A stretch of DNA of 64,000 nucleotides from Pecten maximus (lineage: Eukaryota). The number at the start of each line of letters is the position of its first letter. The first letter of the stretch is position 1. The DNA is taken from the NCBI RefSeq assembly GCF_902652985.1, contig NC_047015.1, positions 42,408,001-42,472,000 on the forward strand. Reading direction: 5' to 3'. Made by a program: the position numbers. Positions 33,001-62,000 of this stretch are shown here, piece after piece.

Positions 33001-36000
33001 CCCTGTCCACGGAACAGAGTAGACCCATGTTAGATTATATTATATTATTCTCGGATGTTGACAATTTGATCACGAACACGTCAATTAAAATTCGGTCAAG
33101 TTACGGCAATTTTCATCGGCGAATTATACATTCGTTCATCATTGAACCACAAAAGGAATGAATTTAAATTTGTATGCAAACTTAAGTTTGCCAAAAATAG
33201 TATTTTGGGTAAAAACCTCAAATAGGGCCTAGAGAATTTTTTTTAAAATGAAGAAAATACATGGTTGAGAGACATTTTGTCAGAAATTAGGCAGGGTATG
33301 AGAGAAAAAGATTCTTTCATTATGTGTGTATGTAGGATAGGGATATTCCACCCTCAGGGTCACAAAATGTGGTAAAAAACCTCGACAAGCCTCGCGTTTC
33401 ACCTTATTTCGGTTTGATGAATGATCGAGTCTTATAATCTTTACTTATTAGTCTTGCACATTTGAGGGCGTAATGGGAACAATGCGTTTCACTGACTGGA
33501 CCAGTTCGGAGATTCCTAAACTGTAATGTCTCATATAGCGCGCAAAACACTTCATCTACAGGAGAGACGTATTGATTAACAGTACCATTTTAACTTATAT
33601 TGATGTTAAAAAGTGGCACCATTTTGATGGTTTTTATTTAAATAACATCACGTGCTAACGATCGAAAACCATTACGGATTGTAAAATATAGAACACTTAT
33701 GTTCTATTGGCATACCAATCTGCAGGAGCAATGATAAAAACGTCCAATTAATTGTCATATATCTTTCTTTCAGTTTTGTTACGGCGATGTTTGTCTCTAT
33801 TATTCTAATATGTGAATGTGAGTATCATATATCCTCTTCCAAATGGACATTTAAGTCATAATGATACTTAACGTTTAAACGTAACCACTCTGATGTAACG
33901 TTTTTGAAAAAAAATCTATGTGGTGTTATACTTATCGCCATACACCCGATAAAAACATACAAACGATATTTACCGTATACAGGAAGGATGCTAGAAACGT
34001 CAAAACACCACAGCAGGTCAACATACATAGAGGCATAACGATATTATATATACACAATACTTAGTTAGAAAATTATTTTCGAGATTGTTCATAGTTCGAG
34101 AAAGTAAATCAAACGCAATCGAAGTCAGCGTTTAGTTTTTGTTGTTGGAAGTCGGCGTTTAGTTTTTGTTGTTGGAAGTCGGCGTTTAGTTTTTGTTGTT
34201 GGAAGTCGGCGTTTAGTTTTGTTGTTGGAAGTCGGCGTTTAGTTTTTGTTGTTGGAAGTCGGCGTTTAGTTTTTGTTGTTGGAAGTCGGCGTTTAGTTTT
34301 TGTTGTTGGAAGTCGGCGTTTAGTTTTTGTTGTTGGAAGTCGGCGTTCAGTTTTTGTTGTTGGAAGTCGGCGTTCAGTTTTTGTTGTTGGAAGTCGGCGT
34401 TCAGTTTTTGTCGTTGGAAGTCGGCGTTCAGTTTTTGTTGTTGGAAGTCGGCGTTCAGTTTTTGTTGTTGGAAGTCGGCGTTCAGTTTTTGTTGTTGGAA
34501 GTCGGCGTTCAGTTTTTGTTGTTGGAAGTCGGCGTTTAGTTTTTGTTGTTGGAAGTCGGCGTTCAGTTTTTGTTGTTGGAAGTCGGCGTTCAGTTTTTGT
34601 TGTTGGAAGTCGGCGTTTAGTTTTTGTTGTTGGAAGTCGGCGTTTAGTTTTTGTTGTTGGAAGTCGGCGTTTAGTTTTTGTTGTTGGAAGTCGGCGTTTA
34701 GTTTTTGTTGTTGGAAGTCGGCGTTTAGTTTTTGTTGTTGGAAGTCGGCGTTTAGTTTTTGTTGTTGTTTGTTTTAGGTGTTAATCCTTTTACTTGCAAG
34801 CTTCCATCAACTCATCCAATTTGTTGTTGTTGTACACTTTCATCTCTTTACTTTGGGCGAACATATTGCATTATAACTGGTGATATAAGAGTTTTAGTCT
34901 CTAAATGAAAGTGGCCCAATATCAGAAGGAACTCACAATATATGAATGAAATGTGAACGGCGGCTCCATAACTTAAAACTAAAACTATAGATATGGAATT
35001 TATAGTTAGTAATGTAATCATGTACGTCCTTTACTGTGATATATCGGAACATGTATATCAATATCAAAAATAACGTTCCGTAAGAAGTGTATCTATATTA
35101 CAATCAAAGGCGCTAAAAGCGGCAATGCTGATAGATATATCTTACACCTCAAAACGAGACACGCTGCTTTGACTTTGAGCTCACGTTCACACTTTCAAGT
35201 TTGTCATAACTTGATGATACTGGTGTAAAACCACATCCAACGACTTGTATGAACAGTTCGTGGTTGTTTTCCCTGACATATACATTTATACTAAGTATTA
35301 AGTATTTCTTACAGACAGAACTGTATTATCTAGGCGTGTTTGATAATTAATTGAACTCTTCTTGAAAGGTTTTCTAGAAAGATAAAATCCTAAAAACTGA
35401 ACTACAAACTTCACAAATCATACTTGTTGAATTGGATGGAAGCGCACGAAGGGTCTTACTGTGGAACGGAAACCGAGTACCAAGAGAAAACCGCACACGG
35501 TACCCTCCTACCTTACTGACATCCCCCATGGAACCGAAGCCGAGTTGAAACAGATCAGCCAATTGCGTTTTCATTGGATGTACTTTTAATTGTAACAAGA
35601 TCTCGATGGAAAAACTGACGGCCATAAAGTTTACGAGATACGGTTAATATTTCATTTTAATTGTATACATACTGACACGCAAAAAGTATTTAGATAACCT
35701 CAAACAAATCATATCACGCAACCTTACTTAAACGAGTCATTATGGGAATTAAATAACTTTCCCGTGCCGTCAGCAACTGCTTGTGGCAAACGTTCGTTTA
35801 AAGGTATTTGGCGAAATTCGCCCTGGCTGAGAACATTCGTCGAAGATTCAATGACGATTCATAATGATAGTTAAAGACACAACTGTCTCGACGGTCGACA
35901 TCACGGTGAAGAATACGAGACATAGTTTGTCCATGGCGTCAGCAACTTCCTTCCAAGTAACTTTCCTTCCGAGAAAGTCGTCGCGCTTGAGACTACCCGC

Positions 36001-59069: not shown

Positions 59070-62000
59070 AGTCCGCCTGAAGAAGCCTGAGAGGGCAGAA
59101 AGGCCTTGCGGCAAAGTCTGTTTTTTGTTATTTTATATATATATATGTATATAGACAAAACATTTTCATATCATACTTGATGAATATGTACTTATATGAA
59201 ACTGATTGATATCTTAATCTCGAATTCTTTTCGGTCATTACATATTTCACGTGTTAACTAAACCCAAATATGGAGCTTAACAGAAGTCCATAATTCATGA
59301 ATATTACTGTAGTACACCTTTCGTTATTTCGTGATAATTATGCACATACACACTGATTCTCGTTGATTTACTCTTTTCAAATTAAACCAGATACAACCCA
59401 ACATGTATCAATATTCAGTTGATATTGAGAATAAATTGAACCGAACACTTTATACATTAAAGACGATAAGAAATTCTTACATTATTTACAACAGTTTCGG
59501 TAAGAATCGTTATAAAATAAAAAATAAGGAACGCAACATCCAAACGTTTTCCTATAGACTGCCACGAAGCTACAGTGCCTTTAGAGTTAGAATCCAAAAT
59601 ATCAACAGCAATATCCTTCTTCTCATCCTCGACACGTCCTGGCTTTAGTTTACAACAGATGACTAGCCATTTAGGGATTGGTTTGTCCTCATTTGTGTTG
59701 TAAACACACAGAGTTATAATCACGGACAACACAATCAGAGCGCTAATGGTCAGTTTTACCATTAGAGAAATTGTCAAAATAGACACCGGGTCACTTGTGT
59801 TTGGGATACTGTCCGACATTATAGTCATATACATTGTCAGGGTCAAAAGCATTGTAGTAGCGAAGGACACTCTTTCCCCGGAATCTGCTGGCAGAATAAA
59901 TGCCAGTAGGGTAACGAAATTCAAAAGGCAAACTGGAAGCATGATTGTGTATAAGAGGTAGGTTGGTCGCCTCTCGATTGAGTATGTTATTTCTACCATT
60001 GGAGTATAGTTGCTAGCAATAGATTTTTTGAGTCCAGTTCTCGATACTGTCCAAAATAAGTTGTCGGTGTTTTCGAAGTATTCCCCCTGTTGATAAATAT
60101 TTAAATCGACAACCGTATACGGCTCTAATACAGTAAACACAAGGGTGCAGTTGTGTACATCGTACGGGTAGTAGGTGATATCCGGTGAGCATGAAGATGT
60201 CACAATTTTAGAATAGATTGCGGAAGCATATCCGGAACTAAGAACAGTGACCGATGATGTTGCGGAAAGAGAATCGCTGTTTATACTGCTGGATAAGATA
60301 ATTTTTGGAGTCCATACCTGAGCATCAGAAAAGTATGATGTTTGGATATTCCCGTAATTGGTAGGATCCCAGTTTAGCTTCCCGTCCAACCATCCAAGAT
60401 AGACAGATGACAACACAGTGAACTTTCCGCTGACAGCGTCGAATTCACGAAAATACGGCATAGAGAATATAAACGTTACGCTCATTACATTGTCCTGATT
60501 TAACACAGGACGAATTTCCTTGGAGTAGTTTGACAAAAGTGTAGTATGTAGTGATAACATATGATCGTAGGATCCTGCTTGTGTGCTCATAAAGAGGTGG
60601 GAAACAAGTACTGTCAGTATGTGGCTTTTCATCATTACTGCGTCCTTAACACAACATACAAATAACGATTTACTCACAATGTGTAGCCGTGGATGTCTCG
60701 AGCTGCAATGTCGGTCTCAATGCCCTACTGGTCTTTAAAGCAATTATCGTGACTATATCAATACTCCATATCATTCAACACTGGCATTGAAAAGTAAGCA
60801 ATAGTTTACCGCGGAAACAATTGAATCGGGAACAGACGATAAAGGTACTTCTGCCAAATCAACTTCCTACTAAATATACTGCCTCGTTGTTTGTGATATG
60901 TTCTTAATAGATAATAGAAATGGGCTAAGCTGTTGTATCTAGCGTAGGGTCATTCACCACGCCTCACTACACACAATTTACACAACTCGTGAGCGATTTA
61001 GAGTTCCCTAGCATAGGGGTCACCTCGGTGATTACAAAACCAATGGTAAATACCGCTAAAAAGGTTAATAGTACCATTACATACACATTCATAGGCTACG
61101 TATAATGTCCTGACGAGCAAGGTAACAATGAGGAAGCAGTGGTGACGCATACTGGCAATTAGTTGTAGGACAACTAGTTCATTAATACTTTAATGGGAAA
61201 ATTATCCGCTTGACTAACTGTTTAGTTTGAAAGGTAATGTAGTATTTACGGATGTATTGATAGAAATTCAAGCATTGTAATATAATGCTGATACACACAT
61301 ATCTCAGGTATGTAGTAAATAGCCCTGCAGGTACGGCGTACTAATTGTACTTATTACCCTCATTACATGATTCTTACGAGGCTATATAATTAAGCCATAT
61401 GATGTGACCATATCGTTTGTCACACTACCGTCCAGGTGTCGCATTTCAGTGTGGTGACACTATAAAAACAGTGTCTTACTGGCCTCCCCGTTGTTGTACA
61501 CTGGTCTTCAAACGTTAAACAATACCAAACAAAAATGGTATATTATCTATAGCTATAGAAGAAACTATTAACAGATAATGTAAAATTATTAAGGTTAAAG
61601 GTCAAAACCGATACAAAGTACTTTAGGAAATATTGAACAATTGCGCACTCACAGGCACAACACCTAATTAACATGGGGTAAAAAAAATCAAATATTGATA
61701 TTATATTCTAACAAATCTTAGATGTGGTATCACAATTACTCCTCCTAATAACACAATAAGTCTGTATACATCGTTACTCTTTATTATATATGGGAGGTCC
61801 ACGAAAATTAGGTACCATGAAGCTATCTAAACAACAGAGAATACCCACATTGAAACGAAACTGTAACGCTAATTCAATAAAAGGAGGGCAGACACAAAAC
61901 AAACAATCACCCCCCCCCCCCCCAAAAAAAAACCAAAAAAAAACAACAACAACAAAAAAACAAACAAACAAAACAAAAAACAAAAACGCTCATCCTCATT

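What the first reader, a model, noticed from the sequence alone, without database searches (positions are those of the whole stretch)
35848..60635. Cluster of intronless cation-type Cys-loop receptors lacking the whole acetylcholine site: candidate chemosensory channels
Seen: three co-oriented single-exon genes with an intact Cys-loop and GEK/GER cation-type linker. By manual alignment all lack loop-C vicinal Cys, loop-B Trp (CEIEVAPLT; CILVFTVME), loop-A Tyr and loop-D Trp. Known: bivalves have large intronless nAChR expansions, and cephalopod chemotactile receptors are intronless, clustered nAChR derivatives that lost these residues and sense other ligands. Inference: an orphan, independently expanding sensory receptor family with unknown ligands.
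Basis: partly seen in the sequence, partly recalled or inferred. Interest (0 to 1): 0.72.

Follow-up and report, generated by a model that had tools for sequence, protein, structure and literature searches.

The report
Scallop orphan nicotinic-like channel gene cluster
Three intact, intron-free genes in a scallop-like genome encode nicotinic-receptor-like ion-channel subunits that have lost the acetylcholine site; they are a typical piece of the already described bivalve expansion of such genes, and their ligands are still unknown.

Summary
Three uninterrupted minus-strand ORFs (g1 35848-37089, g2 49695-50873, g3 59457-60635) encode complete Cys-loop receptor subunits. All keep the Cys-loop, the GE(K/R) ring and 9'-Leu. 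All lack loop-A Tyr, loop-B Trp, loop-D Trp and the vicinal Cys, and loop C is 5-6 residues shorter than in canonical subunits. A degraded g1-like relic lies at 42294-42519.

The nearest proteins are scallop (Pectinidae) proteins. All three genes fall in one 18-row clade that contains only scallop sequences. g2 and g3 are a lineage-specific duplicate pair under purifying selection (dN/dS 0.23 overall, 0.06 in M1-M3). The loop F/C segment is the exception, with 11 nonsynonymous and 1 synonymous difference.

This matches the intronless, tandem bivalve nAChR expansion of Jiao et al. 2019. A 2026 preprint already reports 'CR-like' sequences in bivalves and raises the chemosensory idea. One small new lead: with the ligand-binding domain alone, the best solved match is octopus chemotactile receptor CRT1. 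A phylogeny with cephalopod CRs, expression and ligands could not be tested.

Verdict: a new member of a known kind. The sensory role remains speculation.

The parts
35848..37089 (-). g1: single-exon CDS, 413 aa nAChR-like subunit. Signal peptide, ECD aa 22-230, M1-M3 aa 227-315, short disordered ICD, M4 aa 379-410.
   Evidence: ORF. Pfam LBD and TM domains. AF2 model with mean pLDDT 81.5 and full pLGIC topology. Full-length scallop homologues at 67% and 63% identity with 100% query coverage.
36589..36633 (-). g1 Cys-loop, C153-x13-C167. Loop-B L174, seven residues after C167, takes the place of alpha7 W149.
   Evidence: Sequence. Alignments.
36316..36324 (-). g1 G256-E257-K258 intermediate ring at the cytoplasmic mouth of M2, the cation-type determinant.
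   Evidence: The reading as cation-selective rests on established pLGIC knowledge.
42294..42519 (-). Degraded relic of a g1-like gene, matching g1 aa 26-121 of the N-terminal ECD, with frame changes and stops.
   Evidence: Three tblastn pieces in different frames at 59%, 67% and 44% identity. A straight translation has 3 stops.
49695..50873 (-). g2: single-exon CDS, 392 aa nAChR-like subunit. Cys-loop C149-C163 at 50385-50429, GER ring at 50109-50117.
   Evidence: AF2 mean pLDDT 80.7. Scallop homologues up to 71% identity.
59457..60635 (-). g3: single-exon CDS, 392 aa, a tandem duplicate of g2. Cys-loop at 60147-60191, GER ring at 59871-59879.
   Evidence: 88.8% aa and 90.9% nt identity to g2. 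Sister of g2 in the tree.
50220..50339 (-). g2 codons 179-218 (loop F to the loop C hairpin): the fastest-diverging segment between g2 and g3. The matching g3 segment is 59982-60101.
   Evidence: In the best 40-codon window (codons 179-218) nonsynonymous differences exceed synonymous ones by 11. In the printed window 181-220 the counts are 11 nonsynonymous and 0 synonymous. Permutation p = 0.011-0.026. Codons 176-215 give 11 nonsynonymous and 1 synonymous.
49397..50899 (.). Well-conserved core of the duplication unit (g2 CDS, about 300 bp on its 3' side and 26 bp on its 5' side), paired with 59148-60661 at 87.5% identity.
   Evidence: blastn of the two halves.
50900..54373 (.). Diverged upstream part of the duplication unit, paired in blocks with 60812-63995 at 70-78% identity. 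The unit is about 9.7 kb and the g3 copy reaches the window end.
   Evidence: blastn blocks.

Best explanation
What it is. This is a tandem array of intronless nicotinic-receptor-like pentameric ligand-gated ion-channel subunit genes from a pectinid (scallop) genome. It is one small piece of the large bivalve expansion of such genes.

Shown. Each gene encodes a complete subunit: signal peptide, beta-sandwich ligand-binding domain with an intact Cys-loop, four transmembrane helices and a short disordered M3-M4 loop. The pore keeps the cation-type determinants: -1' Glu in G-E-K/R, 9' Leu and a 20' acidic residue. The canonical acetylcholine site is gone on both faces: loop A Tyr, loop B Trp and loop C Tyr/Cys-Cys on the principal face, and loop D Trp on the complementary face. 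Loop C is also 5-6 residues shorter. The genes are under purifying selection, strongest in the pore-forming helices.

Inferred. The subunits assemble into pentameric cation channels that acetylcholine does not gate through interfaces made by these subunits. The most likely trigger is some other, still unknown ligand, recognised at the remodelled inter-subunit surface. The loop F and loop C parts of that surface are the fastest-changing part of the protein between the recent duplicates g2 and g3.

Origin. The array arose by old tandem duplication (g1-type against g2-type, 31-33% identity, both types present in other scallops). A duplication of an about 9.7 kb unit, specific to this lineage, then produced g2 and g3.
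For: Gene and domain structure.

Site loss with retained Cys-loop and pore motifs. In the 18-row scallop clade, W55 is present in 0 of 15 filled rows, Y93 in 0 of 16 and W149 in 1 of 17. No CC is present in any of the 18 hairpins. G-E-K/R and 9'L are present in 18 of 18.

Canonical controls. The alpha7 and alpha9/10-like rows in the same alignment keep the site.

Selection between g2 and g3: dN/dS is 0.23 overall and 0.06 in M1-M3, with dS 0.25. The CDS is 87-91% identical while the duplicated flanks are 70-78%. The loop F/C window shows a nonsynonymous excess.

Phylogeny. The scallop-only clade has SH-aLRT 98. The g1 branch holds one sequence each from the window, Argopecten, Ylistrum and Mizuhopecten (support 100). 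g2 and g3 are sisters (95).

Linkage in other scallops, inferred from identical 'longest contig' lengths: g1-type and g2-type homologues share a contig length in Argopecten (8 proteins), Ylistrum (4) and Mizuhopecten (2).

Family-wide pattern. Of the 106 nearest cluster representatives of 330-500 aa, 0 have CC or a full site, 106 have the Cys-loop, 99 have -1'E and 102 have 9'L.

Literature. Jiao et al. 2019 report 99-217 nAChR genes per bivalve, intronless and in tandem arrays. They find only 13 of 132 oyster subunits with fully conserved principal sites and suggest binding of diverse ligands.
Against: There is no expression, assembly or ligand evidence of any kind.

The shortened loop C and the mixed polar/aliphatic residues at site positions (g1: I, T, S, I, L, R, L, S, H; g2: S, Y, S, A, S, I, M, P, N, T) could mean there is no usable orthosteric pocket at all. 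That would favour a non-binding structural role.

The loop F/C signal rests on 12 differences. The window length was chosen after seeing the data, and a ratio above 1 is not itself significant. Relaxed constraint explains it as well as ligand-driven diversification does.

A related annelid orphan (Alpo4) has stayed silent in every heterologous test (passages of PMC10338036), so 'orphan' subunits may need partners.

Intronless status is shown for the coding sequence only. Untranslated exons cannot be excluded.
Confidence: 0.6

Rival explanations
1. Chemosensory (CR-like) receptors. The subunits form peripheral chemoreceptor channels in mantle tentacles, gill, palps or larvae, gated by environmental or prey/predator molecules. 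They would be functional counterparts, and possibly relatives, of cephalopod chemotactile receptors.
For: Traits shared with CRs: intronless, clustered, ACh residues lost, short ICD, total length about 390-413 aa against 410 aa for CRT1.

In ECD-only searches CRT1 is the best solved match. g1 gives 71.4 bits, against 67.9 for DEG-3, 60.6 for 5-HT3A and 58.5 for alpha7. The three-gene ECD profile gives 96.1, against 88.7 for alpha7. For a canonical octopus ECD, CRT1 is not among the best 60.

Both CRT1 (A152/L153) and g1-g3 (L, M, L) carry a small or aliphatic residue where alpha7 has W149.

The fastest divergence between g2 and g3 is in loops F and C. CRs likewise show diversifying selection in the outer pocket (passages of 10.1101/2025.10.28.685082).

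A preprint reports a CR-like clade that includes bivalves. Jiao et al. report the highest nAChR expression in bivalve gill (section 10).
Against: There are no expression or ligand data for these genes.

For g2 alone the CRT1 lead is a tie: 67.5 bits, against 67.3 for muscle delta.

Full-length searches, the 26-sequence clade profile and Foldseek all put alpha7 or muscle nAChR first, with no CR among the best 60 of the profile search or among the listed Foldseek rows. Squid CRB1 scores low (46.3 bits).

At least 150 cluster representatives are closer to the g1 ECD than CRT1 is (86 bits or more).

The residues at aligned site positions are not markedly hydrophobic.

Placement relative to CRs could not be tested because no CR sequence was retrievable.
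Confidence: 0.25
2. Non-binding structural or accessory subunits. The proteins co-assemble with ACh-binding alpha-type subunits encoded elsewhere and tune trafficking, conductance or desensitisation of otherwise cholinergic receptors. Vertebrate muscle beta1 and neuronal alpha5/beta3 play such roles (recalled knowledge).
For: The pore and transmembrane parts are strongly conserved (dN/dS 0.06) while the ECD loops are loosely constrained. Loop C is truncated. Canonical alpha-type subunits exist in scallops, for example P0064 from Ylistrum, which has the full site. The Foldseek top hit for g2 is chain B of a human adult muscle nAChR entry. The Alpo4 authors also raise a missing partner subunit as a possibility.
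Against: Loss of loop-D Trp removes even the complementary-face role played by typical non-alpha subunits. The family is very large and diverse (0 of 106 nearest representatives has a site), which is hard to explain if all are accessories to a limited number of alpha subunits. The amino-acid changes are concentrated in binding loops rather than spread evenly.
Confidence: 0.2
3. Decaying retrocopies or annotation-level noise with no function.
For: Jiao et al. note that more intron-poor than intron-rich nAChR genes show little or no expression (passage). A dead g1-like fragment lies inside the array.
Against: There are three full-length open frames and dN/dS of 0.23 at dS 0.25. The CDS is much better conserved than the duplicated flanks. 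Full-length homologues at 63-71% identity exist in other scallop genera. Structural motifs are invariant across the clade.
Confidence: 0.03

Closest known systems
Bivalve/lophotrochozoan intronless, tandemly arrayed nAChR gene expansion (Jiao et al. 2019, PMC6896357)
   Same: Intronless coding sequence, tandem co-oriented array, lineage-specific duplication, a non-alpha subunit without conserved ACh-binding residues, and a bivalve host. All of these were tested here and met.
   Different: Nothing essential. The paper analysed oyster and pearl oyster arrays in detail and scallops only in counts and expression heat maps. This array, its pectinid-only clade and the g2/g3 loop F/C divergence are not described in the parts I read. 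The supplements were closed.
Cephalopod chemotactile receptors (CRT1 in PDB 8EIS/9E6B; CRB1 in 8EIZ)
   Same: Intronless, clustered nAChR derivatives with a similar short length and ICD, without the aromatic box and vicinal Cys, and with an aliphatic residue at the loop-B Trp position. CRT1 is the best solved match to the ECDs of this cluster.
   Different: The host is a bivalve, not a cephalopod. Identity to CRT1 is only about 31% over the aligned ECD, by my count of 48 of 153 columns in the print-out. Full-length and fold searches prefer alpha7 or muscle nAChR. The pocket residues are not clearly hydrophobic. Clade membership, sensory expression and hydrophobic-ligand gating were not tested.
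Vertebrate alpha7 nAChR (closest full-length solved structure)
   Same: Overall fold, Cys-loop, M1-M3 sequence, G-E-K ring and 9' Leu. E-values are 1.6e-31 (g1) and 5e-38 (g2), with Foldseek identities of 23-26%.
   Different: All ACh-contact residues are replaced, loop C is 5-6 residues shorter and lacks the Cys-Cys tip, the ICD is much shorter, and the gene has no introns.
Alpo4, an orphan annelid nAChR-like receptor (PMC10338036)
   Same: A lophotrochozoan orphan nAChR-like subunit without the loop-C vicinal disulfide, not activated by ACh or serotonin, with an unknown ligand (passages).
   Different: Alpo4 keeps the aromatic residues (F103, W159, Y199, Y205, W65). The scallop genes have lost them.

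Membership tests
Cys-loop pentameric ligand-gated ion channels (nAChR-like branch) | Neur_chan_LBD plus Neur_chan_memb domains | tested here: met
   All three proteins score above the Pfam gathering cut-offs for both domains.
Cys-loop pentameric ligand-gated ion channels (nAChR-like branch) | Cys-loop C-x13-C and four transmembrane helices | tested here: met
   g1 C153/C167 and g2/g3 C149/C163. The AF2 models show M1-M4.
Cation-selective pLGICs | -1' Glu in the G-E-K/R ring, with no Pro-Ala-Arg anion motif | tested here: met
   GEK in g1, GER in g2/g3, 9'L and 20' D/E. Selectivity itself is inferred from established knowledge and was not measured.
ACh-binding alpha-type nAChR subunits | Vicinal Cys-Cys at the loop C tip | tested here: not met
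   There is no CC in the hairpin of g1, g2 or g3, nor in any of the 18 scallop-clade rows.
ACh-binding alpha-type nAChR subunits | Principal-face aromatic box (loop A Tyr, loop B Trp, loop C Tyr x2) | tested here: not met
   Y93 becomes S; W149 becomes L, M or L; Y195 becomes H, T or T. HMMER aligns a g1 Tyr with alpha7 Y188, while MAFFT puts a gap there, so positional homology is doubtful in the shortened loop.
Complementary-face (non-alpha) ACh-site subunits | Loop D Trp (alpha7 W55 equivalent) | tested here: not met
   g1 has I78 and g2/g3 have S77 at this position.
Bivalve intronless tandem nAChR expansion (Jiao et al. 2019) | Intronless coding sequence | tested here: met
   Single ORFs run from the signal peptide to M4. 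Homologues cover 94-100% of the query. UTR introns are not excluded.
Bivalve intronless tandem nAChR expansion (Jiao et al. 2019) | Tandem array with lineage-specific duplication, in a bivalve host | tested here: met
   Three genes and one relic lie on the same strand within 25 kb. g2 and g3 are sisters within a scallop-only clade. The best hits are Pectinidae.
Cephalopod chemotactile receptors (CRs) | Placement inside the CR clade of the nAChR tree | not testable with these tools
   No CR sequence could be retrieved, and PDB sequences are not exportable. Similarity only: CRT1 is the top solved match for the ECDs but not for the full length.
Cephalopod chemotactile receptors (CRs) | Intronless, with loss of ACh-coordinating residues | tested here: met
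   The feature as a CR trait is taken from passages of PMC11526382 and PMC13174522.
Cephalopod chemotactile receptors (CRs) | Exceptionally hydrophobic orthosteric pocket | tested here: inconclusive
   Aligned site positions are mixed. g1 has I, T, S, I, L, R, L, S, H and g2 has S, Y, S, A, S, I, M, P, N, T.
Cephalopod chemotactile receptors (CRs) | Expression in sensory epithelium and gating by poorly soluble ligands rather than ACh | not testable with these tools
   No expression or electrophysiology data are accessible. The supplementary tables of Jiao et al., which may hold scallop expression data, were closed.

The most novel reading that the evidence does not exclude
The pectinid clade that holds g1-g3 descends from the same ancient molluscan 'CR-like' lineage as the cephalopod chemotactile receptors. 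On this reading it works as an ionotropic chemoreceptor family in scallop peripheral tissues. Loops F and C would be the ligand-tuning surface under diversifying selection, so that recent duplicates such as g2 and g3 sense different non-cholinergic cues. One conceivable class of cue is steroid-like predator or prey molecules, since CRT1 binds progesterone. That suggestion is my speculation. If true, taste-by-ion-channel using nAChR derivatives would be a molluscan invention, not a cephalopod one.
Probability: 0.2. Interest if true: 0.75.

Novelty: new member of a known kind. Interest (0 to 1): 0.35.

Why it matters
Bivalves carry 99-217 nAChR-like genes (Jiao et al. 2019). In my literature searches I found no divergent bivalve subunit with a known ligand. 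This array is an ordinary example of that family, so it does not change the picture.

It is, however, a compact and clean test case:
- one old single-copy gene (g1) that has one sequence per scallop genus in the tree;
- one young duplicate pair (g2/g3) whose amino-acid differences concentrate in the binding loops;
- ligand-binding domains whose nearest solved relative is an octopus chemotactile receptor.

If such genes proved to be chemoreceptors, the conversion of neurotransmitter receptors into environmental sensors would extend from cephalopods to molluscs in general. It would also help explain how animals with simple nervous systems monitor their surroundings.

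Tried and rejected
1. Fetching cephalopod CR sequences for a joint phylogeny. The third and last homology search, with a 26-sequence profile (A1), returned 36 proteins at E <= 1e-20. Those that carry a source name are from bivalves, gastropods, fishes, a bird, a sea urchin, an acorn worm and a scorpion. None is a named cephalopod sequence, so no CR was retrieved and the phylogeny with CRs was not done.

2. Foldseek of both AF2 models against the PDB. Only alpha7, muscle and alpha4beta2-type nAChR chains were listed (18-26% identity, TM-score 0.54-0.63). 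This does not discriminate between the readings.

3. ESM Atlas look-ups. These confirmed the superfamily only.

4. The listing of cluster members, to name the unnamed representatives. The shared database was switched off, so the organisms behind P0085-P0230 and the jgi/ena/lgn hits remain unknown. I did not try to trace them.

5. van Giesen et al. 2020 and Allard et al. 2023 are not held. CR features are quoted only through passages of papers that cite them.

6. Retrogene hallmarks. No A-run of 8 or more lies within 900 nt downstream of any of the three stops. Retroposition of the ancestor is therefore taken from the literature model and is not shown here.

7. Complex prediction was not run. 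Any pLGIC subunit would probably pass as a homomer through likeness to solved pentamers, so the result would not separate an autonomous receptor from an accessory subunit.

No eukaryotic genome collection was on hand, so exon structure and gene order at the orthologous scallop loci stayed unchecked.

Nothing in the window looked human.

10. Considered and rejected: that the window's Pfam-negative ORFs of 100 aa or more hide further receptor genes. tblastn with all three proteins at E <= 0.01 found only the relic at 42.3-42.5 kb.

Full report
OBSERVATION

All three match both Pfam Neur_chan_LBD and Neur_chan_memb above the curated cut-offs. AlphaFold2 models (mean pLDDT 81.5 and 80.7, pTM 0.65 for both) show the full subunit plan. 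That plan is an N-terminal signal helix, the alpha1 helix, a beta-sandwich, M1-M3, a short disordered M3-M4 loop (g1 residues 341-373, g2 residues 331-353) and M4. In a stop-to-stop scan of the whole window (30 ORFs of 100 aa or more), these three are the only long non-repetitive frames. tblastn with the three proteins found one more piece, a degraded g1-like fragment at 42294-42519 on the minus strand. It appears as three pieces in different frames and has three stops in a straight read. The array is therefore g1, a relic, g2 and g3, all on one strand.

THE ACH SITE

HMMER alignments to human alpha7 and a 70-row MAFFT alignment give the same result.
- Loop A: Y93 becomes S in all three genes.
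- Loop B: W149 becomes L174 in g1, M170 in g2 and L170 in g3.
- Loop D: W55 becomes I78 in g1 and S77 in g2/g3.
- Loop C: there is no vicinal Cys pair.

The beta9-loop C-beta10 hairpin is 26-27 residues in all 18 scallop-clade rows. It is 32 residues in 37 of the 38 rows of the canonical half of the tree. The Cys-loop (C-x13-C), the G-E-K/R ring, 9'-Leu and a 20' acidic residue are kept. As an internal control, the 5 alpha7 rows and 28 alpha9/10-like rows keep every site residue wherever the column is filled. I would add only the shortened loop C and the exact replacement residues.

ORGANISM AND FAMILY

The closest proteins are from scallops. For g1 they are Argopecten irradians (67%), Ylistrum balloti (63%) and a partial Mizuhopecten yessoensis protein (61%). 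For g2 they are Argopecten and Ylistrum (71%), with Pecten maximus only at 42%. No hit was flagged as the window's own protein, so the species is a pectinid that I did not identify.

In a 70-row tree (IQ-TREE quick search, SH-aLRT support only), g1, g2 and g3 lie in an 18-row clade that contains only scallop sequences (support 98).
- The g1 branch holds one sequence each from the window, Argopecten, Ylistrum and Mizuhopecten (100).
- g2 and g3 are sisters (95) inside an 8-row clade (100) with five Argopecten sequences and one Ylistrum sequence.
- Canonical alpha7 and alpha9/10-like subunits lie in the other half of the tree.

g1-type and g2-type homologues report the same longest-contig length within Argopecten (8 proteins), Ylistrum (4) and Mizuhopecten (2). 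I read this as linkage of the two gene types in other scallops too. This is an inference, because I could not see those loci.

DUPLICATION AND SELECTION

g2 and g3 are 88.8% identical in protein and 90.9% in CDS. The conserved core of the repeat unit is 49397-50899 against 59148-60661, at 87.5% identity. Further upstream the two copies are only 70-78% identical, in blocks out to 54373 and 63995. The unit is therefore about 9.7 kb, the coding part is held back from diverging, and the array may continue past the window end.

Nei-Gojobori dN/dS between g2 and g3:

| Region | dN/dS | Note |
| --- | --- | --- |
| Whole CDS | 0.23 | dS 0.25 |
| ECD | 0.23 | |
| M1-M3 | 0.06 | |
| ICD | 0.76 | few sites |

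Of the 44 amino-acid differences, 29 are in the ECD. Eleven fall in codons 176-215 (loop F to the loop C hairpin), where only one synonymous difference occurs. The ratio there is 2.8, against 0.16 for codons 22-175. I picked that segment after seeing the data, so I also ran a 40-codon sliding scan. The strongest excess of nonsynonymous over synonymous differences is at codons 179-218, and permutations reach it with p = 0.011-0.026. This is suggestive, not proof. It rests on 12 differences, the window length was also chosen after seeing the data, and relaxed constraint is an alternative. The two paralogs also differ at the loop-B Trp-equivalent position itself (M170 against L170).

HOW GENERAL IS THE TRAIT

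An exhaustive HMMER search of 1.84 billion cluster representatives with the g1 ECD found 3,460 proteins at E <= 0.001, 956 at E <= 1e-10 and 6 at E <= 1e-30. The best 150 all score 86 bits or more. Of the 146 representatives newly on file, I kept the 106 of 330-500 aa and dropped 40 fragments or multi-domain fusions. Among those 106:

| Feature | Count of 106 |
| --- | --- |
| Vicinal Cys pair | 0 |
| Complete W55/Y93/W149/CC site | 0 |
| Cys-loop | 106 |
| -1' Glu | 99 |
| 9' Leu | 102 |
| Loop-B Trp | 47 |

The median length is 419 aa. The window's genes are thus ordinary members of a very large family of short nAChR-like subunits without an ACh site.

RELATION TO CEPHALOPOD CHEMOTACTILE RECEPTORS

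With full-length queries, alpha7 is the best solved match (bits):

| Query | alpha7 | CRT1 |
| --- | --- | --- |
| g1, full length | 113.1 | 107.9 |
| g2, full length | 134.3 | 106.6 |

A 26-sequence profile of the divergent bivalve clade scores 267.5 bits to muscle alpha1 and 265.4 to alpha7, with no CR among the best 60. Foldseek lists only classical nAChRs.

With the ligand-binding domain alone the ranking changes (bits):

| Query | CRT1 | Other solved matches |
| --- | --- | --- |
| g1 ECD | 71.4 | C. elegans DEG-3 67.9; 5-HT3A 60.6; alpha7 58.5; squid CRB1 46.3 |
| g2 ECD | 67.5 | muscle delta 67.3; alpha7 66.6 (a tie) |
| ECD profile of g1-g3 | 96.1 | alpha7 88.7 |
| Canonical octopus alpha10-like ECD (control) | not in the best 60, below 129.9 | alpha7 215.5 |

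The printed g1-CRT1 alignment shares motifs outside the pocket: NYS-x-x-IRPV, W-x-DE-x-L-x-WNP and D-x-HTCEI. It also reproduces the CRT1 numbering used in a 2025 preprint (Y39, Y58, W122, F124, C150, A152, L153). By position, CRT1 Y58 corresponds to alpha7 W55 and g1 I78. alpha7 W149 lies seven residues after the second Cys-loop Cys, which corresponds to CRT1 A152 and g1 L174. I take this as a modest, reproducible lean of these ECDs towards CRT1. It is similarity, not phylogeny. CR sequences could not be fetched, so clade membership is untested.

LITERATURE

Jiao et al. 2019 (PMC6896357). I read the abstract, passages, and sections 9 and 10 in full.
- They report 99-217 nAChR genes in five bivalves.
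- Only 33 of 132 oyster genes are alpha-type, and 13 of those have fully conserved principal sites.
- They suggest that this diversity may support binding to diverse ligands.
- They report the highest expression in gill, and some stage- or stress-specific genes.

The MolluscaGenes preprint (PMC13174522, passages only) resolves a CR clade and a 97-sequence 'CR-like' clade that extends to gastropods, bivalves and polyplacophorans. It notes divergent clades with substitutions at agonist positions, and it states that an ionotropic chemosensory role deserves functional tests.

A review (PMC11526382, passages) lists CRs among intronless chemoreceptor families.

The Alpo4 paper (PMC10338036, passages) describes a lophotrochozoan orphan that ACh and serotonin do not activate.

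My searches for a functionally characterised divergent bivalve subunit found none. Supplementary tables that might hold scallop expression values were closed.

MECHANISM

Shown:
- complete subunit genes under purifying selection;
- cation-type pore motifs;
- loss of the ACh site on both faces;
- a lineage-specific tandem duplication.

Inferred:
- pentameric cation channels that are not gated by ACh at interfaces formed by these subunits;
- most likely gating by another ligand at the remodelled interface, whose loop F/C surface diverges fastest.

I give this reading 0.6. Within it, a peripheral chemosensory role gets about 0.25. The main rival, a non-binding accessory subunit in cholinergic heteromers, gets about 0.2. 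Non-function gets about 0.03.

VERDICT

The class is already known, so this is a new member of a known kind. The chemosensory reading is an untested analogy with two small supporting leads: the lean of the ECDs towards CRT1, and binding-loop divergence between the young duplicates. Interest is 0.35.

Noticed in passing
window 10744-11253 (+): A 169-aa open frame matches Pfam RPC5_C, the C-terminal domain of RNA polymerase III subunit RPC5 (E 1.5e-15). It is probably one exon of a multi-exon neighbouring gene on the opposite strand from the receptor array.
   Followed up: partly
window 34121-34767: A near-perfect tandem array of 24 copies of a 27-bp unit (98% matches) lies about 1.1 kb beyond the 3' end of g1. 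It creates long artefactual ORFs in several frames.
   Followed up: no
window 1-582 and 4749-5174: Two arrays of a 155-bp unit. By eye the two consensus units look like reverse complements of each other, which may mark the two ends of a repeat-bearing mobile element.
   Followed up: no
window 42294-42519 (-): A frame-shifted relic of a g1-like N-terminal ligand-binding domain lies between g1 and g2. It shows that the array has lost at least one member.
   Followed up: partly
g2 50220-50339 / g3 59982-60101: In the loop F/C segment synonymous differences are almost absent (0-1) although dS is 0.44 in codons 22-175, while nonsynonymous differences peak there. One possible cause is a recent local gene conversion followed by fast amino-acid change. 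Chance is another.
   Followed up: partly
proteins P0085-P0091, P0115 and others: Several of the closest cluster representatives are 670-1215 aa long with 2-5 separate ligand-binding-domain matches. They are most likely neighbouring tandem genes merged by automatic gene prediction, which would bias published gene counts for this family.
   Followed up: no
window 13842-17440 and 20914-21307: Several further minisatellite-like arrays with periods of 22-199 bp, including a 49-bp unit repeated 19 times at 14747-15695. They are typical of repeat-rich bivalve intergenic DNA.
   Followed up: no
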